Shown here piece by piece: positions 3,534-31,382 of a DNA stretch of 32,000 nt. This DNA is from Halomicrobium mukohataei DSM 12286 (GTDB lineage Archaea; Halobacteriota; Halobacteria; Halobacteriales; Haloarculaceae), in assembly GCF_000023965.1 (NCBI RefSeq), contig NC_013202.1:2400001-2432000 (forward strand). Direction: 5' to 3'. Under the pieces are notes generated by a model, which was not told the DNA's origin, searched no databases, and worked only from the letters and a program-made list of their open reading frames with translations. Within the stretch, counting starts at the first letter, position 1. Each line of letters begins with the position of its first letter. Both the position numbers and the translations under genes were made by a program.

Positions 3534-3611
3534 TACTGCCGGCTGTCCGTCTGTACAGACCGTTGCGACCCCGTGGTCACGACTCTCTCGAAACGGTGAC
3601 AGCCGGCAGTA
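3534..3611. mobile_element. Family-A 78-bp palindromic MITE-like element, copy A1 (diverged)
   Basis: TACTGCCGGCTGT...ACAGCCGGCAGTA termini with an inner hairpin. Flanks are CCA / TCA. The right flank TCA is the TGA stop of the Nudix-like gene on the minus strand. Confidence 0.75.
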
Positions 3612-4109
3612 TCAGTCCAGGAATACGTCCGTCCCCGGAATCACGTCGGCATCTGCGGGCAGTTCGTCGAACCACTCGACCGCGTGGACCGGTTCGCCTG
3701 CCGGTTCCACGGCAGTGAGATCGTACGCTCCCGACATGGGGACGCCGCCGAAGGTGACGAATCCCCGCGTTGCGGTCCGTTCGCCGCCGTCCGTTTCGAC
3801 GGTGACCTGCCAGACGCCTTCGATCGTCGCCCGAACGTGATCGACGATCGCAGTCGTGAACGCCTCGTCCGGTGTCACGCTTTCGACGGGGATCTTCCAC
3901 GAGCAGGTGTCCGTTTGCTGTCGGAGGAGGAGCTCGCCCGCTGGGTTCGTGATGCCCACGCAAGCGAGATCTGGGAGGTCTCTCATCCGGTCGACGACTG
4001 CCCGGTCGACGACGTCTCGCTGCTCGTGATACGGCACTGGATCGTCCGCAGAGAGGCGCTCGTAGTCGACGATCGGTTCGATCTCCGGAGATGGGGTGTC
4101 TGTCGTCAT
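3612..4109 (-). CDS. Hypothetical protein, Nudix-fold-like with a degenerate Nudix box
   Basis: 165 aa, acidic. The segment WKIPVESVTPDEAFTTAIVDHVRATIEGV aligns loosely to GX5EX7REUXEEXGU, but the catalytic Glu residues are not conserved. It is bracketed by elements A1 and A2. Confidence 0.5.
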   Translation of the reverse strand: MTTDTPSPEIEPIVDYERLSADDPVPYHEQRDVVDRAVVDRMRDLPDLACVGITNPAGELLLRQQTDTCSWKIPVESVTPDEAFTTAIVDHVRATIEGVWQVTVETDGGERTATRGFVTFGGVPMSGAYDLTAVEPAGEPVHAVEWFDELPADADVIPGTDVFLD

Positions 4110-4196
4110 GGTGGGTGGGTTGTGGCGTGGCTCGACCGAAGCGAGCGTTCCCGGCGGACGTTCGAGCGAGGCCCCGCGAAATCAGTGTTCGACTGA

Positions 4197-4274
4197 TACT
4201 GCCGGCTGTAAGTCTGTACAGAATTTCGCGACCACGAGGTCGCGAATATCTTGAAACAGTTACAGCCGGCAGTA
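4197..4274. mobile_element. Family-A element, copy A2
   Basis: TACTGCCGGCTGTAAGTCTGTACAGAATTTCGCGACCACGAGGTCGCGAATATCTTGAAACAGTTACAGCCGGCAGTA. Perfect TGA direct repeats flank it at 4194..4196 and 4275..4277. Confidence 0.85.
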
Positions 4275-4835
4275 TGACAAGCGGCGGACTAATGAATGTA
4301 CCGGCAGTTCGGAAGGCGGATCCGTGCCGGATATCCTCCCGTCGATCGGATAGGCCGGCACAGATCCGCCAACTGCACCTCGGCCTTTCACCCCCAGGGC
4401 TTTCGGTGCTGTCAGTTGCTTCGGCCAATCTCCGCACCTTCGGACAGTCGATCGTCGCCACAGCCCGGCGCTTGGCGACGGATCTCGACGCCACTACCGA
4501 CGACGGTCGGTGCGGACGAGCCTCTCGCTGGTCTCTCGACGGCTCGATCCGTCCTCGTCGGCTGCCGTCCGGCAGCGGATCGCGAGTGTGACTCTAGGGC
4601 TGGCGTCTTCGATCGTTTCTCGTCTGTGGTCGCCATATATGATCAAGTTCTTTCATTTCTGCCCATCAGAAGTGGCCGCAGTGAGACTGATAAATTGCAT
4701 AGCGCTATACAGAAGTGAGCGTGCGAACGACAGTGAACGCTACGTTTCGCACGGATCGGTGTCGCCCTGGACCGGATCGATCGCACGACGATGTTCGACC
4801 GTGAGAACGGCGACGAGCGTCCGTACCAGAGGTGG

Positions 4836-4919
4836 GGTCAGTACAGTAGCGAGTCAAGAGGCCAGTACAGTAGCGAGTCGAGAGGCCAGTACAGTAGCGA
4901 GTCGAGAGGCCAGTACAGA
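4836..4919. repeat. 24-bp tandem repeat, about 3.5 units (GGCCAGTACAGTAGCGAGTCGAGA)
   Basis: Units at 4836, 4860 and 4884, plus a partial unit at 4908. Units 2 and 3 are identical and unit 1 has 2 mismatches. The period of 24 is divisible by 3. Confidence 0.9.
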
Positions 4920-5032
4920 ATATCGCCGACGCTCGTAGACGGCGAGGATCATCCCGGTGGTGCCGAACACTCTGCTCGCGTTCGAGGCGCACGCTTCGCC
5001 GTCGGCGTCGTCACAGCCCCCGACCCGCCTCA

Positions 5033-5109
5033 TACTGCCGGCTGTACGTCTGTGGAGAGTTTCGCGACCCCGTGTCGCGAATACGTTGAAACAGTGATAG
5101 CTGGCAGTA
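5033..5109. mobile_element. Family-A element, copy A3 (77 bp)
   Basis: TACTGCCGGCTGTACGTCTGTGGAGAGTTTCGCGACCCCGTGTCGCGAATACGTTGAAACAGTGATAGCTGGCAGTA. Flanks are TCA / TCG. Confidence 0.8.
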
Positions 5110-5165
5110 TCGGGAGAGAGGGTCCCAGCGATGCGGGACACGATAGCGCGTGTCCGTCGGGGTGA

Positions 5166-5243
5166 TACCGCCGGCTGTACGTCTGTATAGAATTTCGCGA
5201 CCCCGTGGTCGCGAATATCTTGTAACAGTTACAGCCGGCAGTA
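5166..5243. mobile_element. Family-A element, copy A4
   Basis: About 6 mismatches to A2 over 78 bp by hand alignment. Flanks are TGA / CGA. Confidence 0.85.
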
Positions 5244-5309: not shown

Positions 5310-7193
5310 TCACTCTTCGCTCTCTTCTTGCGTGCGCGTCGTCTGTGACGGTCCGCCGGAGAAGACGAACTCGTGTTCGGCTTCCGTCTCGAAGCGGTCG
5401 AGGATGTCCCCGAGCGGTCGAGCGTACCGTTTCAGCTGTTCGGCGCGCGAGGATACTTCGTTGAGTTCGGCGGCCTGTTCCTCCGCGGCACCGGCGACGG
5501 TCTCGGACTCGGACATCATCTGCTCGCTGGTGTCTGCGGCCTCCTGCAGCTGGGTCGCGACGGTGCGGAACTGGGTGAGCGAGTCGCCGAGGTCGACTGC
5601 TTGCTGCTCCGCTTCGAGGGCTTCGAGCGTCTCGACCAGTTCGTCGAGATCCTCGGAGATCGTCTGTAGCTGGTCTTTCTGCTCGTAGGCGTCGTCGGAG
5701 ATCTTCTGGATGGACTCGGCGACCTGTTCGGAGGCGTCACGGACAGACTCGGCACTTTGCAGCACCACGTCACCGGATTCCGCGACCTCTTCGGAGAAGC
5801 TCTTGAGCTGGCCGGTCGTCTTCTCCAACTCCTCGATCATGGCGTTGAACTCGCTCGCGATCGTGTCCATCGCTTCGTTCTCGCCGTCCTGCTCCATTCG
5901 CGTGGTCATGTCCCCGCCTGCGGTCTTCTCCATGGCGACGGAGAACTCGGTGGCTTTCTCCTGGAGGTAGTTGCTCATCTCCATTGCTTCCGCGCGCGAG
6001 ACCTCGGCCTCTTTGCGTGCGCGCTCGGCTTCGTCGATCTGCTCTCTGAGCGCGTCGCGCATGTCGGCGAAGCCGTCGTACAGCCGACCGATGTTGTCGA
6101 TCCGTGACGTGTCCAGTTCGACGTCGAGATTGCCCTCCCGCATCTCTTCGGTCTTCCGGGTGAGCGTATCGATCGACGACGAGGTGCTCCAGCCGAGGGC
6201 CGCACCGATACCGCCGATGAAGACGACCAGACCGGCCGTCGCGATCAGGCCGTACAGCTGCACGTCCTCGACGAAGCCAAACACCGTCGAGGACGGTGCG
6301 TGGGTCAGGACGACCCAGTCAGTCCCAGAGACCGGCGCGTAGCCGACTGTGTACTCCTCGTTCAGTCCGAGGTCGGCGTTCGGTGCCATCGTCGTCTTGA
6401 CGCTGGCACTCTCCTGTGTGCCCCGCAGGGCGTTCGCGTCGTCGACCGTCTGCTGGACGGGGTACGTCGACAGCGTCATCCCCTCTCGGTCGCTGTTGCT
6501 GGCGTAGGCCTGGTCGACGACGACCGTGCGGTGGCTGTCGACGACCTGTGTGAATCGCGCGGACTCGTCTTCGGCCGGACTGATCGAGTCGGCGAGTTCG
6601 TCGAGCCGGTACTCGACGACCAGGATGCGGTTCTGGGAGGCCGGCACCGGGCTGGCGAACCCGATGGTCGATTCGCTGTCCTGGCTGTCGCGGTAGGCGT
6701 CGGAGACGAGTACCCGACTGGTGTCGCTGAGCTCCGTCTCGGACGTCCACTGGAGGTTCCCGGACAACGCCGACGAGTCCGCACGGAGGCTCGTACTGGC
6801 GACGACGGACGATCCCGACGGCGTCGTCTCCAGCAGGTGGACGTTCTTGGCGTCGGCCGACAGCCGCGACAGCTCGTTTTGGAGAGCGAGTTCGAGATCT
6901 GCCTCGTCGTCACCCCACTGGTCCTGATTGGAGATGAGCTTCGTCGACAGCTTGTTCTGCGTGACCCACTGCTCGACGATGTCACTCTGCTGGACGGCCG
7001 TGTTCTGGAACTGTCCTTCGACGTTGTCCTGTGTCTGGGTCCGGACCTCTTCGGTCGCCGCGAACCCGATGATGCCGACCGACAGCCCCATCACCAGCAG
7101 GACGAGCCCGAACTTCAGTGCGAAGCTCCGCCTGAGGAAGTTGGGCGTGATCTTCTGGAGAATACCTTCGGAAGACGACTCTGTGTCGCTCAT
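5310..7193 (-). CDS. Membrane-bound Htr/MCP-like transducer with two TM helices, a large extracellular domain, HAMP modules and a shortened signalling domain
   Basis: 627 aa. TM1 is FALKFGLVLLVMGLSVGIIGFAA. An extracytoplasmic region of about 275 aa follows, then TM2 LYGLIATAGLVVFIGGIGAALGW. HAMP-like segments and methylation-helix-like heptads (SIQKISDDAYEQKDQL, AEEQAAELNEVS) are present. The QTNxLALNAxIEAAR tip motif is absent. Confidence 0.8.
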   Translation of the reverse strand: MSDTESSSEGILQKITPNFLRRSFALKFGLVLLVMGLSVGIIGFAATEEVRTQTQDNVEGQFQNTAVQQSDIVEQWVTQNKLSTKLISNQDQWGDDEADLELALQNELSRLSADAKNVHLLETTPSGSSVVASTSLRADSSALSGNLQWTSETELSDTSRVLVSDAYRDSQDSESTIGFASPVPASQNRILVVEYRLDELADSISPAEDESARFTQVVDSHRTVVVDQAYASNSDREGMTLSTYPVQQTVDDANALRGTQESASVKTTMAPNADLGLNEEYTVGYAPVSGTDWVVLTHAPSSTVFGFVEDVQLYGLIATAGLVVFIGGIGAALGWSTSSSIDTLTRKTEEMREGNLDVELDTSRIDNIGRLYDGFADMRDALREQIDEAERARKEAEVSRAEAMEMSNYLQEKATEFSVAMEKTAGGDMTTRMEQDGENEAMDTIASEFNAMIEELEKTTGQLKSFSEEVAESGDVVLQSAESVRDASEQVAESIQKISDDAYEQKDQLQTISEDLDELVETLEALEAEQQAVDLGDSLTQFRTVATQLQEAADTSEQMMSESETVAGAAEEQAAELNEVSSRAEQLKRYARPLGDILDRFETEAEHEFVFSGGPSQTTRTQEESEE

Positions 7194-20921: not shown

Positions 20922-22303
20922 GTGATTCAGCTGACACACCGACGGAGGAGTCGTTCGAACCGACGGAACCGAACACGGGCGAGGAGTTCGAGCCGGTCCA
21001 GGTGTTCCCCGACGAGGAGACGATGGACCTGCGGCCCGGCGCGGACTCCTGTACGAAGTGTAGTACCTGCGATACGAACTGTCCGGTCGCGGAAGTCGAC
21101 GACGAGTTCCCGGGGCCGAAGTTCCAGGGACCGGAGCAGTGGCGACTCAAGCAGACCGACGACGGCGACGAGTTCGCCATCGACGACTCCATCATGGACT
21201 GCTCGAACTGCATGCGCTGTGACGACGCCTGTCCCTCGGGTGTCCCGCTCAGCCAGATGCACAACGAGGCCCGCGGCGAGTACGTCGACGAGCAGATGAG
21301 CAAGCTCTCGACGGAGTACTGGCGCAACCGGATCCTCGCCAACTACCGCACGTCCGCGTGGCTGGCGAGCAAGGTCCCCCGGATCGCCAACGTCGCGATG
21401 AACTTCGGGCCGGCTCGCTGGGTCATGGAGAAGACCCTCGGTGTCACGAGCGAGCGGGAGTTCCCCGCCTTCGCGACGGAGACGTTCTCCGAGTGGTGGG
21501 CCGCCCAGGGCGGCGCTGCCGGTTCCCGCGAGCGCGCTCGCGACGCCCGCGAACGCCGCGGCGAACCCCTCGACGCCGACAAGAAGGTCGCGTACTTCCA
21601 CGGCTGTTACTCCGAGTACAACACCCCCGAGGTCGCGCGGGCCCTCGTTCGCGTGTACGAGCACTTCGGCTACGAGATCGTCGTGCCCGAGCAGGGCTGT
21701 TCGGGAACGCCGATGTTCGCAAACGGGATGCTCGACGACGCCCGCCGCCACGCCGAGGTCAACGTCTCTTCGATGGCCGATCTGGTCGAGGAGGGGTACG
21801 ACGCCATCGCCTCCTGTACGTCGTGCTCGCTGGCGCTGCGACAGGAGTATCCCGAGCTGTTCGACATCGACGGCATCGAAGACGTGGCCGAGAACACCTT
21901 CGAGTCCATCGAGTACCTCCGGATCCACGAAGACGTGCGCGGTGCGCTCCAGGACGCCGAGATCGGGGACGAACTCGCCGAAGAGTTCGCCTACCACGCG
22001 CCGTGTCACGCCCGCAACCAGGGGCTCGAACGGCAGGCCGTCGAGCTGTTCCGCGATCTCGACGGCGTCGCAGTCGAGGACGTGGGCGACTCCTGTTCGG
22101 GCATCTCGGGCACCTACGGCTGGAAAGACGAGAAGTACGAGAAGTCGATGGCCATCGGTGAAGAGATGTTCGACCACATGGAGGACGTCGAGAGCACCAC
22201 CGGTATGACCGAGTGTCCCACCTGCTCGATGCAGATGGAACACGGTACTGGCTACGACATCCGACACCCGATCGAGCTGGTCGCGGCGGCGCTGGTCGAG
22301 TGA
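20918..22303 (+). CDS. glpC: Glycerol-3-phosphate dehydrogenase subunit C (Fe-S / CCG-domain protein)
   Basis: 461 aa. Two ferredoxin-type clusters are present (CTKCSTCDTNCP, CSNCMRCDDACP), plus two Cys-rich CCG-like repeats. The stop TGA 22301..22303 doubles as the left target duplication of element B1. Confidence 0.9.
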   Translation: MSDSADTPTEESFEPTEPNTGEEFEPVQVFPDEETMDLRPGADSCTKCSTCDTNCPVAEVDDEFPGPKFQGPEQWRLKQTDDGDEFAIDDSIMDCSNCMRCDDACPSGVPLSQMHNEARGEYVDEQMSKLSTEYWRNRILANYRTSAWLASKVPRIANVAMNFGPARWVMEKTLGVTSEREFPAFATETFSEWWAAQGGAAGSRERARDARERRGEPLDADKKVAYFHGCYSEYNTPEVARALVRVYEHFGYEIVVPEQGCSGTPMFANGMLDDARRHAEVNVSSMADLVEEGYDAIASCTSCSLALRQEYPELFDIDGIEDVAENTFESIEYLRIHEDVRGALQDAEIGDELAEEFAYHAPCHARNQGLERQAVELFRDLDGVAVEDVGDSCSGISGTYGWKDEKYEKSMAIGEEMFDHMEDVESTTGMTECPTCSMQMEHGTGYDIRHPIELVAAALVE

Positions 22304-22383
22304 TACGGACGGTTGTCGGCGTTTACCCAGTCGACCGCACGACGGCGTACGGTCGATCTGGTAACGACCTACAACTTTCCGTA
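22304..22383. mobile_element. Family-B 80-bp palindromic MITE-like element, copy B1
   Basis: TACGGACGGTTGTCGGCGTTTACCCAGTCGACCGCACGACGGCGTACGGTCGATCTGGTAACGACCTACAACTTTCCGTA. Perfect TGA / TGA flanks. Confidence 0.85.
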
Positions 22384-23191: not shown

Positions 23192-24832
23192 CTACTGTCG
23201 TCGCCGGCCCACGAGTGCCACACCGAGCGCGACGACCGTGAGAGCCAGGTAGACGACCGGGATCCCCGCCGACGCCGTCGACGGCCGGGCGGCGACGTAA
23301 TCGAGCGCGCCGAGTCCGTTGACGGGGCCGAGGTACCACGCCGTCAGATAGGCGATCTCGAAGCTCTTGGATCGCCCGGTCCAGACGCCCAGCGCGAGCG
23401 CGATCGCCGGCAACGACAGGACGGCCGCGAGCCAGCCCGCGAGCGCACCGTCCATCCCGGAGAGGGCGAACCGGACGGGTGCGGGCACGGACACCAACAG
23501 CCCGATCGCGACGCCGGACGCGTAGGTCGCGCCCAAGAGCCGGATCGGTCTGCTGCCGACGAACACCAGCTCTGTCGTCCGGTATCGCCGTTCGCGCGTC
23601 CCGAGTGCCGACCACGCCGAGAGCGGGAGCAAGAGCGCGATCGGGACGACCAGCGTGCGGACGACACCGATCGGCGCGACGGCAGTCGCGAGAACGGCCA
23701 GCGCGGCCGCAGCGTACCACCACCGAGGGTAGCCACGAACCGCCATCCGGAGTTCGGCCAGCAAGACGGGGACGGGCGAGCCGCCGTCGCGGCTGACGGG
23801 TGCGAGGTCGACATCGACCGACGAATCCGCCGTCGTCGACGGTTCGACCTCGTCGTCCGCGGTCTCTCGATCGGACTCCGAGCGAGAGAGGAACGACCAG
23901 CGCGTCGAGTCGTCGAACCGGTCGAACGCGAGCCAGGCCCCTCCGAGGAATCCACACGCGGCGGCGAGTACCGGGAGACGGGCCACGAGCCGCGGCCCGG
24001 TCCAGGCGATCCCGTCCCACGTGAACTCGGCGAGACCGCCCGGATCGTCCGTGTAGGTGAAGCCGAAGACCGACCCGTCGAAGGCGGGATACTGGGCCGC
24101 GATCGACTGGACCATGCTGTCGCGGACGACCGCGAGTCCGACGAGATCCAGCGGCGCGTCCGGTGCGATCCCGGCTACGATGGCGGTCAGCGCGAGCAGG
24201 AAGTAGATCACGGTACCAGCAGTGCCACGGAGCGGTCCGATCGTCTCGAAACAGACCGCGACCGCCGCGACGACGGCCATGGCCGGGATCGTGATCAGGA
24301 GGAACGGCGAGACCAACGCCCAGGGGTCGAACGCGCCCACGCCGACGAAGAGCGAGGCGACGCCGGTCGAAGCGAGCAGGACCAGCGTCCCGAACGCGAG
24401 GACGGCGACGTTGCTCAGCCACTTCCCCAGGAGGTACTGGCCGTTCGACAGCGACGAGGGCGCGATCAGTTCGCTCACCCCCGTCTCCAGGTCCCTGCCG
24501 ATGCTGCCTTTCACGAGGGAGAATCCGAAGAGGACGAGCACCGTCGTGCCGATGACGGCCGTCATCCCAGCGAGCCAGGCGATCGTCGGGCGGCCGGTGT
24601 AGTCGGTGCCGACCACCAGCGTCGAATCGACGGTGACGATCTTCACGAAGTACGCGACCAACAGCGGCACGACGAGGAACTTCGTCGAGCGCGACCGCTC
24701 TCTGAGGTCCGCCAGTGCCACGGCGACGACCGGTCTGATACTGCCGGCTGTAACTGTTTCGAGATATTCGCGAACCCGTGGTCGCGAAATTTCGTGCAGA
24801 CTTACAGCCGGCAGTATGAGTGGCCCGGTCAT
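23192..24832 (-). CDS. ABC-2-type transporter permease (large, multi-TM) carrying an in-frame family-A element near its 5' end
   Basis: The start ATG 24832 overlaps the ATPase stop (ATGA). The protein is long and hydrophobic (LVVPLLVAYFV, GMTAVIGTTVLVLFGF, VAVLAFGTLVLLA...). Codons 6-32 are encoded by element A5. Confidence 0.75.
   Translation of the reverse strand: MTGPLILPAVSLHEISRPRVREYLETVTAGSIRPVVAVALADLRERSRSTKFLVVPLLVAYFVKIVTVDSTLVVGTDYTGRPTIAWLAGMTAVIGTTVLVLFGFSLVKGSIGRDLETGVSELIAPSSLSNGQYLLGKWLSNVAVLAFGTLVLLASTGVASLFVGVGAFDPWALVSPFLLITIPAMAVVAAVAVCFETIGPLRGTAGTVIYFLLALTAIVAGIAPDAPLDLVGLAVVRDSMVQSIAAQYPAFDGSVFGFTYTDDPGGLAEFTWDGIAWTGPRLVARLPVLAAACGFLGGAWLAFDRFDDSTRWSFLSRSESDRETADDEVEPSTTADSSVDVDLAPVSRDGGSPVPVLLAELRMAVRGYPRWWYAAAALAVLATAVAPIGVVRTLVVPIALLLPLSAWSALGTRERRYRTTELVFVGSRPIRLLGATYASGVAIGLLVSVPAPVRFALSGMDGALAGWLAAVLSLPAIALALGVWTGRSKSFEIAYLTAWYLGPVNGLGALDYVAARPSTASAGIPVVYLALTVVALGVALVGRRRQ
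24739..24816. mobile_element. Family-A element, copy A5, inverted relative to A1-A4, inside the permease CDS
   Basis: About 6 mismatches to the reverse complement of A2 over 78 bp. Perfect TGA / TGA duplications lie at 24736..24738 and 24817..24819 within C..G (CTGAG target). Confidence 0.85.
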
Positions 24833-25689
24833 CGTCCGATCGCGTCGAGGTACGCGTCTTCGAGGGTCGGTTCCGCGGGCTCGGCTGCCGGCGTCGGCCG
24901 CGACGCCGAGACGACCCGGACCGCGACGCCGTCGCTGCGCCGGGCCGTCCCGCTGATCGTGTACTCGCGTTTGACCTCGGCGAGGTCGTCGTCGCCCACG
25001 GTCCACTCCCAGACCGAACCCTCGACCTCGTCGAGCAGCGCGGCGGGGGACTCGTGGGCCAGCACGCGTCCGTCGTGCAGGAGGACGATGTCGCTCGCGG
25101 TCACCTCCACGTCCGAGACGATGTGCGTCGAGAGCACCACGATTCGATCCTCGGCGAGCTCGGCGAGGACGTTCCGGAAGCGGACGCGCTCCGTCGGGTC
25201 GAGTCCGACGGTCGGTTCGTCGACGACCAGCAGCTCCGGGTCCGCGAGCAGCGCCTGGGCGATCCCCACGCGCTGGCGCATACCGCCCGAGAATCCGCCC
25301 AGGCGACGATCGGCCGCCGCTTCGAGGTTGACGAGCGCGAGGAGGTCGTCGATGCGCTCGCCGACGTTCGAGACGCCCCGTATCGCCGCCAGGTAGCGGA
25401 GGAACTCCCGAGCGGTCAGGCTCGGGTACACGCCGAACGACTGGGGGAGATAGCCGACCGAGTCCCTGATCGCGCGTGGCTCCTCGCGCACGTCCGTCCC
25501 GTTCCAGCGGACCCGCCCGTCGGTCGGCTGGAGCACGGTCGTGACGATCCGCATGAGCGTGGACTTGCCGGCACCGTTGGGGCCGAGCAGCCCGACGACG
25601 CCCGGTTCGAGCACGAGATCCACGTCTCGAAGCGCGTGTTCGTCGCCGTACCGTTTCCCGATCCCGTCGAGTTCGAGCTGCATCGTCAC
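24829..25689 (-). CDS. ABC transporter ATP-binding protein (ABC-2 / DrrA-like)
   Basis: 286 aa. Walker A is GPNGAGKST, the signature is FSGGMRQR and Walker B is LLVVDEPTVGLD. Confidence 0.9.
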   Translation of the reverse strand: MTMQLELDGIGKRYGDEHALRDVDLVLEPGVVGLLGPNGAGKSTLMRIVTTVLQPTDGRVRWNGTDVREEPRAIRDSVGYLPQSFGVYPSLTAREFLRYLAAIRGVSNVGERIDDLLALVNLEAAADRRLGGFSGGMRQRVGIAQALLADPELLVVDEPTVGLDPTERVRFRNVLAELAEDRIVVLSTHIVSDVEVTASDIVLLHDGRVLAHESPAALLDEVEGSVWEWTVGDDDLAEVKREYTISGTARRSDGVAVRVVSASRPTPAAEPAEPTLEDAYLDAIGR

Positions 25690-31223: not shown

Positions 31224-31382
31224 TACCGTCGGCTCTCATACGGACGGTTGTAGGCGTTTACCCAGTCGACCGCACGACAGCGTGCGGTCGATCTGGTAAA
31301 GACCTACAACTTTCCGTATCAGTCTGTGATGAACGGGCCACCGCCGGACGGCGACCGTCGTGGGACGGTGGGGGTCGGCAGT
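31224..31382. mobile_element. Possible degenerate family-A element (A6) interrupted by B3
   Basis: After removing B3 and one TCA, about 77 bp remain: TACCGTCGGCTCTCAGTCTGT...GTCGGCAGTA. By hand alignment 18/23 positions at the left end and 10/11 at the right end match family A. The interior is diverged. The element begins right after the acs TGA stop. Confidence 0.3.
31239..31318. mobile_element. Family-B element, copy B3
   Basis: 4 differences from B1 over 80 bp. Perfect TCA / TCA flanks at 31236..31238 and 31319..31321 within C..G. Confidence 0.85.

What the first reader, a model, noticed from the sequence alone, without database searches (positions are those of the whole stretch)
24736..24832. 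Family-A element inserted in frame into the ABC-2 permease gene; 78 bp + 3 bp duplication = 27 codons
The permease ATG (24832) overlaps the ATPase stop, so it is the coupled start. Codons 6-32 (ILPAVSLHEISRPRVREYLETVTAGSI) are exactly element A5 plus one TSD copy. Removing them restores CTC AGA, i.e. MTGPL-RPVVAVALADLRERSRS..., a typical ABC-2 N-terminus. Because 78+3 is divisible by 3 and the palindrome is stop-free in the frames seen, insertion neither shifts nor truncates the ORF. The track shows ILPAV...TAGS peptides wherever the element occurs, on both strands. This parallels the Rickettsia palindromic elements that add peptide segments to proteins, which I have not seen described for haloarchaea. 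Alternatively, translation could now restart at the GTG in ...AVAL... just past the element.
Basis: seen in the sequence. Interest (0 to 1): 0.7.

Follow-up and report, generated by a model that had tools for sequence, protein, structure and literature searches.

The report
In-frame MITE insertion in permease gene
A 78-bp mobile palindromic element (a MITE) jumped into the sixth codon of a membrane-transporter gene in Halomicrobium without breaking its reading frame; this is a well-documented but ordinary kind of event, and whether the 27 extra amino acids are actually made is still open.

Summary
The window is Halomicrobium mukohataei DSM 12286. At 24739-24816 lies a 78-bp near-perfect palindrome flanked by a 3-bp duplication (TCA on the gene strand).

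The element is a typical MITE:
- There are 5 copies in the window and more than 130 in other Halobacteriales genomes.
- The modal length is 78 bp.
- 81 of 93 full-length copies have a perfect TNA duplication, within a target consensus C|TSA|G.

The insertion adds 81 bp, or 27 codons, with no stop. It falls in the short N-terminal tail, just before the first conserved helix. H. katesii shares it at the same site. Between the two carrier genomes the gene has dN/dS 0.24, so it is still functional.

The comparison with Rickettsia palindromic elements holds only for this one copy. None of the other 113 copies examined is inside a gene, and most copies carry stops in this frame.

Translation of the 27 residues is unproven. 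GenBank starts the gene at the coupled ATG (546 aa). RefSeq starts it at a GTG after the element (509 aa). I favour the ATG, at about 0.6.

Verdict: a new member of a known kind, of modest interest.

The parts
24739..24816 (-). MITE copy A5: 78 bp, TACTGCCGGCTGTAA...TTACAGCCGGCAGTA, a near-perfect palindrome
   Evidence: Absent from the empty allele in L001. RNA hairpin of -41.4 kcal/mol, z = -7.4.
24817..24819 (-). Upstream copy of the 3-bp target-site duplication (TCA on the gene strand, TGA on the + strand)
   Evidence: Filled versus empty site alignment.
24736..24738 (-). Downstream copy of the 3-bp target-site duplication (TCA on the gene strand)
   Evidence: Filled versus empty site alignment.
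24830..24832 (-). ATG of the permease, overlapping the ATPase TGA stop (ATGA). This is the ancestral, translationally coupled start; it is the GenBank start for this genome (ACV48628.1, 546 aa) and the RefSeq start for the empty allele (WP_170094466.1).
   Evidence: Orthologues in other genera start about 10 residues before AVALADFRERSRS.
24719..24721 (-). In-frame GTG (codon 38), 15 nt downstream of the insertion. It is the alternative start used by RefSeq (WP_126967074.1, 509 aa, MALADL...).
23192..24832 (-). Permease ORF (546 codons including the 27-codon insert). It is ABC-2-like: the Pfam match is below threshold here, but orthologues are annotated PF12698/PF12679.
   Evidence: AF2 model: mean pLDDT 87.7, residues 1-30 at pLDDT 47-58, first confident helix at 32-47. 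dN/dS 0.24 between the two filled alleles.
24829..25689 (-). ABC transporter ATPase gene, upstream partner in the operon
   Evidence: PF00005, E = 1.8e-32. Same gene order in L001 and L122.
3534..3611 (.). MITE copy A1, intergenic. Its flanking TCA (3612-3614) is the TGA stop codon of the minus-strand ORF 3612-4109.
4197..4274 (.). MITE copy A2 (TSD TGA/TGA), the closest relative of A5 (92%)
5033..5109 (.). MITE copy A3 (77 bp, degenerate right end)
5166..5243 (.). MITE copy A4 (flanks TGA/CGA)

Best explanation
**Shown**
- A 78-bp non-autonomous DNA transposon (a MITE) is present here. It has 15-nt perfect terminal inverted repeats and is almost entirely self-complementary.
- It inserted into the trinucleotide TCA of the sequence C-TCA-G, which spans codons 5/6 (cTC Aga) of the permease gene of a two-gene ABC transporter operon, and it duplicated the TCA.
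- The event happened once, in the common ancestor of H. mukohataei DSM 12286 and H. katesii DSM 19301. Other Halomicrobium genomes and all other genera keep the empty site.
- Because 78 + 3 = 81 and this copy has no stop in the frame it landed in, the ORF that begins at the ancestral ATG (overlapping the ATPase stop as ATGA) remains open for 546 codons.
- The insertion point is in the short, poorly conserved N-terminal tail. It lies one residue before the conserved Arg and the first amphipathic helix (R-x3-AVALADFRERSRS) and before the first transmembrane helix.
- The gene downstream has stayed under purifying selection since the insertion.

**Inferred**
- Ribosomes that finish the ATPase ORF reinitiate at the overlapping ATG, as shown for overlapping gene pairs in Haloferax volcanii.
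- They then unwind the MITE hairpin and produce a permease with a 27-residue, probably disordered, N-terminal extension.
- That extension is tolerated rather than useful.
- The family as a whole behaves as an ordinary intergenic MITE. This copy survived only because length, frame and position happened to be harmless.
For: **Empty and filled alleles.** They differ by exactly 81 bp with the TCA duplication, and the predicted ancestral N-terminus is found in P0002.

**Properties of the MITE family**
- 99 of 132 copies are 78 bp.
- 81 of 93 have a perfect 3-bp duplication, always TNA (TCA 42, TGA 30, TAA 5, TTA 4).
- The target consensus is C|TSA|G, with C at -1 in 50 of 81 and G at +3 in 52 of 81.
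- The family is spread over Halovenus, Halomicrobium, Haloarcula, Halapricum, Halostagnicola and MAGs.

**Shared insertion in H. katesii.** It sits at the same site with 1 difference in 81 nt, while the gene as a whole differs at 38 of 1641 nt.

**Gene still functional.** dN/dS is 0.24 between the two filled alleles (dS 0.054), the same as between filled and empty alleles (0.25-0.29). Differences by codon position are 8/7/22, p = 0.003.

**Start codon.** Orthologues from many genera start M-x3-R-x3-AVALADF, which supports the ATG as the ancestral start.

**Structure.** In the AF2 model the first 30 residues, which include most of the 27-residue insert (residues 6-32), have pLDDT 47-58, and the rest is confident from residue 31 onwards.

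Against: - There are no expression data. Nothing here shows which start codon is used.
- RefSeq's pipeline starts the protein at the GTG after the element in both carrier genomes.
- The element forms a -41 kcal/mol hairpin that begins 16 nt after the ATG. Its stem is prolonged by flanking complementarity that pairs the AUG itself, which could hinder reinitiation or elongation.
- Only one substitution has accumulated in the insert, and it is non-synonymous (T to I). The sequence therefore carries no signal of selection on the peptide.
- No autonomous parent IS with matching ends was found.
Confidence: 0.6

Rival explanations
1. The insertion displaced the functional start. The permease is now made from the in-frame GTG at 24721-24719 (MALADLRERSRS..., 509 aa). 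The MITE would then be an untranslated spacer between the ATPase and the permease, or it would carry a promoter for a leaderless permease mRNA. Any product from the ATG is minor or absent.
For: - RefSeq models WP_126967074.1 (509 aa) and WP_018258444.1 (515 aa, H. katesii) start at this GTG.
- The GTG-started protein keeps every confidently modelled helix except the first few residues of helix 32-47.
- The strong hairpin, with its stem extended over the AUG, could block use of the ATG.
- For the empty allele too, one annotation (NLV10815.1, 515 aa) chose the GTG.
Against: - The GTG is 111 nt inside an operon mRNA with no recognisable Shine-Dalgarno motif.
- In Haloferax, downstream genes of overlapping pairs depend strictly on termination-reinitiation (PMC6728339).
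- Orthologues conserve about 10 residues, including an Arg, upstream of this Val. A GTG start would delete them.
- The ORF through the element is still open in two lineages.
Confidence: 0.3
2. The insert has been co-opted. Either the 27-residue segment or the RNA/DNA hairpin now has a function, for example tuning the permease:ATPase ratio, and is kept by selection. That would make it a true archaeal analogue of the peptide-adding Rickettsia palindromic elements.
For: - The insertion is retained with an open frame in two species-level lineages.
- Only 1 substitution is seen in 81 nt, where about 4.4 would be expected at the synonymous rate of the gene (dS 0.054). My own Poisson estimate is P about 0.07.
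Against: - The substitution deficit is not significant. It is equally explained by hairpin constraints or by chance.
- The one change is non-synonymous and breaks the terminal repeat.
- Four other Halomicrobium genomes and all other genera do without the insert.
- The first 30 residues, which include most of the insert (residues 6-32), are modelled with low confidence.
- 113 of 114 family copies are not in genes, and the frames are not kept open.
Confidence: 0.07
3. The insertion inactivated the permease, and the ORF is a young pseudogene that merely has not decayed yet.
For: Insertions into coding sequence usually inactivate genes. The Pfam match of the protein is below threshold.
Against: - dN/dS is 0.24 between the two insertion-bearing alleles, indistinguishable from comparisons between filled and empty alleles.
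- Substitutions are biased to third codon positions, p = 0.003.
- The ORF is intact over 546 and 552 codons in the two genomes.
- The weak Pfam match is a property of the whole orthologue family, including the empty allele.
Confidence: 0.03

Closest known systems
Prokaryotic MITEs mobilised in trans by DDE transposases that make TNA duplications (IS5-family IS1031-type; from my own knowledge of ISfinder classes)
   Same: - Short (78 bp), with no coding capacity for a transposase.
- Terminal inverted repeats.
- Fixed 3-bp TNA target duplication inside a palindromic target C|TSA|G.
- Many dispersed, mostly intergenic copies.
- Presence/absence polymorphism between strains.
   Different: - No autonomous partner with matching ends was found in the DNA available here, so the superfamily assignment is inference from the duplication alone.
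- The element ends are TAC...GTA, not the GG/GA ends I recall for IS5-family members.
Rickettsia palindromic elements (RPE; Ogata et al. 2000 and 2002, as summarised in PMC10969869)
   Same: - A palindromic repeat.
- Inserted in frame in a housekeeping-type gene.
- The ORF remains open and the host gene remains under selection.
- The added segment lies where it should not disturb the fold.
   Different: - Nearly half of the RPE copies counted in R. conorii sit in genes, and each encodes a conserved peptide. Here 1 of 114 copies is in a gene, and the frames carry stops in most copies.
- There is no sequence relationship and the domain of life differs.
- This element has a clear target duplication and behaves as a standard cut-and-paste MITE.
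- Translation of the insert is not demonstrated here.
Haloarchaeal MITEs and small mobile repeats (MITEHsal, MITEHwal/HqIRS, SMR-A/B; PMC3119063, PMC7002104)
   Same: - Same host group.
- Transposase-free elements with inverted terminal repeats.
- Strain-specific insertions defined by comparing genomes.
- HqIRS41 is likewise only 80 bp.
   Different: - SMRs make no target duplication, whereas this element does.
- The described Halobacterium MITEs have other duplication lengths, for example 7 bp for MITEHsal2.
- No in-frame coding insertion is reported in those papers.
Intragenic ERIC, Correia, BOX and Anabaena MITEs that create in-frame fusions in bacteria (review PMC10969869)
   Same: Occasional in-frame insertion of a MITE into a gene, with the reading frame kept open. 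The review calls this 'not unusual'.
   Different: Those cases are bacterial and belong to different element families. Here the host is an archaeon, and the insert follows a start codon used by termination-reinitiation.

Membership tests
MITE (non-autonomous DNA transposon) | Short, with no transposase gene | tested here: met
   78 bp. The only reading frames are the 26-27 codon read-throughs.
MITE (non-autonomous DNA transposon) | Terminal inverted repeats | tested here: met
   TACTGCCGGCTGTAA / TTACAGCCGGCAGTA is perfect over 15 nt in A5. The ends are invariant across the window copies.
MITE (non-autonomous DNA transposon) | Target-site duplication of fixed length | tested here: met
   81 of 93 full-length copies have a perfect 3-bp TNA duplication. 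For A5 this is proven against the empty site.
MITE (non-autonomous DNA transposon) | Multiple dispersed copies, with insertion polymorphism | tested here: met
   5 copies in the window. Filled and empty alleles exist within Halomicrobium.
MITE (non-autonomous DNA transposon) | A cognate autonomous IS with homologous ends and the same duplication | tested here: inconclusive
   Solo ends in 121 loci led to ordinary genes or degenerate MITE copies, and no transposase was found. Whole genomes and ISfinder could not be searched.
Rickettsia palindromic elements (RPE-like coding repeats) | Recurrent in-frame insertion of family members into many unrelated protein genes | tested here: not met
   Only A5 of 114 copies lies in a coding sequence. 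The other 9 candidates are upstream of genes or in antisense pseudo-ORFs.
Rickettsia palindromic elements (RPE-like coding repeats) | Family-wide conserved open reading frame that encodes a conserved peptide | tested here: not met
   The frames are open in 35%, 68% and 19% of copy orientations.
Rickettsia palindromic elements (RPE-like coding repeats) | The insert is transcribed and translated as part of the host protein | not testable with these tools
   Only gene models are available, and they disagree: 546 aa versus 509 aa.
REP/BIME elements mobilised by RAYT | 20-40 bp palindromes with a GTAG/CGTC tag and no target duplication | tested here: not met
   The element is 78 bp and has a 3-bp duplication.
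Haloquadratum-type small mobile repeats (SMR) | Inverted terminal repeats without target duplication (PMC3119063) | tested here: not met
   A target duplication is present in 87% of full-length copies.
ABC-2 type transporter permease (host gene) | Pfam ABC2_membrane family match, and an operon with an ABC ATPase | tested here: inconclusive
   PF12698 scores 17.9 bits against a cut-off of 31.6 for P0001. Several orthologues carry precomputed PF12698/PF12679 hits. The adjacent ATPase is PF00005, E = 1.8e-32.

The most novel reading that the evidence does not exclude
The 27 MITE-encoded residues are really translated. Ribosomes would reinitiate at the ATGA overlap, read through a -41 kcal/mol hairpin, and produce a permease with an N-terminal extension that has been kept since before H. 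mukohataei DSM 12286 and H. katesii diverged. As far as I could find, this would be the first documented archaeal protein segment born from a MITE. It would also be a natural test case for how termination-reinitiation copes with strong structure right after the start codon.
Probability: 0.5. Interest if true: 0.45.

Novelty: new member of a known kind. Interest (0 to 1): 0.3.

Why it matters
- It gives a clean, dated example, with filled and empty alleles and an orthologous filled allele in a second species, of a transposable element adding coding sequence to an archaeal membrane protein without killing the gene.
- It exposes a real annotation conflict between the 546-aa and 509-aa models that can only be settled by experiment.
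- It characterises here, from sequence, a widespread Halobacteriales MITE family: 78 bp, TNA duplication, C|TSA|G target, and frequent placement exactly on stop codons. Genome annotators should mask it.
- It does not change our understanding of MITEs or of ABC transporters.

Tried and rejected
1. **Peptide search in the protein database.** I searched the 5.8-billion-protein database with a profile of MITE-encoded peptides in two frames, to count gene-internal copies elsewhere.
   - A 54-aa concatenated profile returned only 3 short hypothetical proteins from 24 candidates and did not even recover P0001.
   - The word prefilter makes this search uninformative, so I draw no conclusion from it.
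2. **Parent IS.** I looked for terminal repeats without a partner 55-100 bp away in 121 loci.
   - L006 3045-4355 turned out to lie inside an acyl-CoA ligase gene.
   - L011 and L047 have ordinary genes next to the solo ends.
   - No transposase was found.
3. **Hairpin-loop targeting.** The A5 site lies in the loop of a native 10-bp hairpin, so I tested whether the MITE prefers such loops. Flank complementarity over 81 copies (3.04) is no higher than with shuffled partners (3.15 +/- 0.11), so the idea is rejected.
4. **Rfam.** No family matches anywhere in the window.
5. **Other possible gene-internal copies.** L117, L054 and L088 all proved to lie upstream of the real start of the neighbouring gene.
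6. **Ancestral segment lost elsewhere.** Rejected, because all other genera lack it and the segment is 92% identical to another MITE copy.
7. **Bacterial promoter/terminator scan.** Not used, because it does not apply to archaeal promoters.

Full report
**Source and locus.** The permease encoded at 23192-24832 on the minus strand is 100% identical to ACV48628.1 of Halomicrobium mukohataei DSM 12286. The gene follows an ABC ATPase gene (24829-25689; PF00005, E = 1.8e-32). The ATPase TGA and the permease ATG overlap as ATGA. The same gene order is found in two other Halomicrobium genomes: PEP carboxylase, ATPase, permease, universal stress protein.

**Checking the observation.**
- On the gene strand the sequence reads ATG ACC GGG CCA CTC A|TA CTG CCG GCT GTA AGT ... 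ACA GCC GGC AGT A|TC AGA CCG.
- The segment TACTGCC...GGCAGTA (24816 down to 24739) is 78 bp. Its terminal inverted repeats are perfect over 15 nt, and almost the whole element is self-complementary.
- The 14-mer end occurs 9 times in the window, against 0.10 expected from shuffles.
- Four further copies lie at 3534-3611, 4197-4274, 5033-5109 and 5166-5243. A5 is 92% complementary to the copy at 4192-4275.
- The decisive control is an empty site. The orthologous gene in GCA_012726095.1 (locus L001) reads GGGCCAC TCA GACCGG, where DSM 12286 reads GGGCCAC TCA [78 bp] TCA GACCGG. The 61 bases upstream are identical.
- The insertion is therefore exactly 81 bp: the element plus a 3-bp duplication of TCA.

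**What the element is.** Almost all were in Halobacteriales: Halovenus, Halomicrobium katesii, Haloarcula, Halapricum, Halostagnicola, Natronomonas and many MAGs.

| Property | Result |
|---|---|
| Copies with the 78-bp length | 99 of 132 |
| Full-length copies with a perfect 3-bp duplication | 81 of 93, always TNA |
| Duplication sequences | TCA 42, TGA 30, TAA 5, TTA 4 |
| C at position -1 of the reconstructed target | 50 of 81 |
| G at position +3 of the reconstructed target | 52 of 81 |

- The reconstructed target is thus the palindrome C|TSA|G. The permease site CTCAG fits it exactly.
- These features define a MITE. A TNA duplication points to an IS5/IS1031-like or Harbinger-like DDE transposase; this rests on my own knowledge of IS classes and was not tested.
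- I could not find the autonomous partner in the DNA at hand.
- MITEs are well known in haloarchaea (PMC3119063, PMC7002104). A 2024 census names Haloarculaceae and Halovenus genomes as among the richest in archaea, and finds 88.9% of archaeal MITEs intergenic (PMC11602168).

**History of this copy.**
- H. katesii DSM 19301 carries the same insertion at the same site. Its protein (P0126) begins MTGPLILPAVSLHEISRPRVREYLETVIAGSIRPVV.
- There is one difference in the 81 nt (ACA to ATA), while the whole gene differs at 38 of 1641 positions.
- Strains GCA_012726095, LC1Hm, IBSBa and KBTZ05 have the empty allele. Orthologues from about 40 other sources, including Natrinema, Halohasta, Halorussus, Halorubrum and Halosimplex, have no such segment.
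- This points to a single insertion in the common ancestor of DSM 12286 and H. katesii.

**Consequences for the gene.**
- The frame in which this copy landed is free of stops, so the ORF from the ancestral ATG stays open (546 codons; 552 in H. katesii).
- The gene was not inactivated. Between the two insertion-bearing alleles dN/dS is 0.24 (dS 0.054, dN 0.013). Filled versus empty comparisons give 0.25 and 0.29. Differences fall 8/7/22 on codon positions 1/2/3 (p = 0.003).
- Orthologues share an N-terminus of the form M-x3-R-x3-AVALADFRERSRS. The insertion lies between residue 5 and the conserved Arg.
- An AlphaFold2 model built on 96 sequences is confident overall (mean pLDDT 87.7, pTM 0.80). 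The first three 10-residue blocks (residues 1-30), which include most of the insert (residues 6-32), average pLDDT 47, 53 and 58. Confidence rises to 93 from residue 31, where the first helix (32-47) begins, followed by the first transmembrane helix (51-68).
- The extra residues would therefore be a floppy N-terminal extension that need not disturb the fold.

**Is the insert translated?** This is the open point.
- GenBank annotates 546 aa from the ATG.
- RefSeq annotates 509 aa (515 aa in H. katesii) from the in-frame GTG at 24721-24719, 15 nt beyond the insertion.
- In favour of the ATG:
  - It overlaps the ATPase stop.
  - The residues between the ATG and the GTG are conserved in other genera.
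- Against the ATG:
  - As RNA, the element folds into a -41.4 kcal/mol hairpin (z = -7.4) that begins 16 nt after the AUG.
  - The flanking sequences GACGAUGACCGG and CCGGUCGUCG extend the stem over the AUG itself.
  - That short flanking hairpin already exists in the empty allele, so the MITE sits in its loop.
- I put about 0.6 on the ATG and 0.3 on the GTG.
- The insert shows 1 substitution where about 4.4 would be expected at the synonymous rate. My own Poisson estimate is P about 0.07. This is too weak to argue for selection on the peptide or on the hairpin.

**Comparison with Rickettsia palindromic elements.**
- The resemblance is real for this copy: a palindromic repeat, in frame, with the host gene still under selection.
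- It fails as a description of the family.
  - Among 114 copies, only A5 lies in a coding sequence. The nine other candidates were upstream of the true start of a neighbouring gene or in antisense pseudo-ORFs.
  - The three frames are open in only 35%, 68% and 19% of copy orientations.
  - The fact that 78 + 3 is a multiple of three has a one-in-three chance on its own.
- In Rickettsia nearly half of the copies counted sit in genes, and each encodes a conserved peptide (PMC10969869).
- The same review calls in-frame MITE fusions 'not unusual' in bacteria.

**Verdict.**
- The functional reading is a tolerated, probably neutral, in-frame MITE insertion.
- It is a new member of a known kind. I found no earlier description of a MITE-derived coding segment in a haloarchaeon, but the principle is established.
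- Interest is modest (0.3). It would rise somewhat if translation through the hairpin were demonstrated.

Noticed in passing
L002-L121 and window 3534-3614: In 31 of 114 family A copies the target duplication is itself the stop codon (TGA/TAA) of a coding-like ORF of at least 100 codons. Only 2.2% of all TNA trinucleotides in the same DNA are such stops. Window copy A1 is an example: TCA at 3612-3614 is the stop of ORF 3612-4109 on the minus strand. This could reflect target choice plus purging of gene-internal insertions, or use of the hairpin as a terminator or 3' stabiliser. The background was not restricted to intergenic sites.
   Followed up: partly
window 22304-22383 and 31239-31318: A second palindromic MITE family (B): 80 bp, TACGGACGGTTGT...ACAACTTTCCGTA, two copies 94% alike. 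It has the same TAC...GTA tips and the same TNA duplication (TGA and TCA), so it is probably moved by the same kind of transposase. At 22301-22303 the duplicated TGA is the stop codon of the 461-aa Fer4/CCG gene. The spacer to the Usp gene is 195 nt here and in H. katesii but only 19 nt in L001, so this region is also polymorphic.
   Followed up: partly
window 3534-5243: Four family A copies are crowded into 1.7 kb of apparently non-coding DNA, between a 165-aa ORF (3612-4109, minus strand) and a 627-aa methyl-accepting-type transducer gene (5310-7193, minus strand). A 24-bp tandem repeat (about 3.5 units, 94% identity) lies at 4836-4918.
   Followed up: no
window 24722-24842 (minus strand); L001 2990-3040: The start codon of the permease sits in a native 10-bp hairpin (CGAUGACCGG / CCGGUCGUCG) that is also present in the empty allele. 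The MITE landed in its 10-nt loop. Targeting of hairpin loops is not a general property of the family.
   Followed up: yes
window 24719-24832; proteins P0001, P0124, P0125, P0126, P0002, P0127: Public annotations disagree on the start of this gene both with the insert (546/552 aa versus 509/515 aa) and without it (525 aa versus 515 aa).
   Followed up: yes
L007 3426-3491 and L038 4033-4102: The end-pair pattern also matched a Chloroflexota MAG and an Acidobacteriaceae MAG, with spacings of 66 and 70 nt. In L007 the right end has GA instead of the TA tip, and in L038 the left tip is TC instead of TA; neither has a recognisable partner end within 55-100 bp. These look like chance matches in GC-rich DNA rather than family members.
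   Followed up: partly
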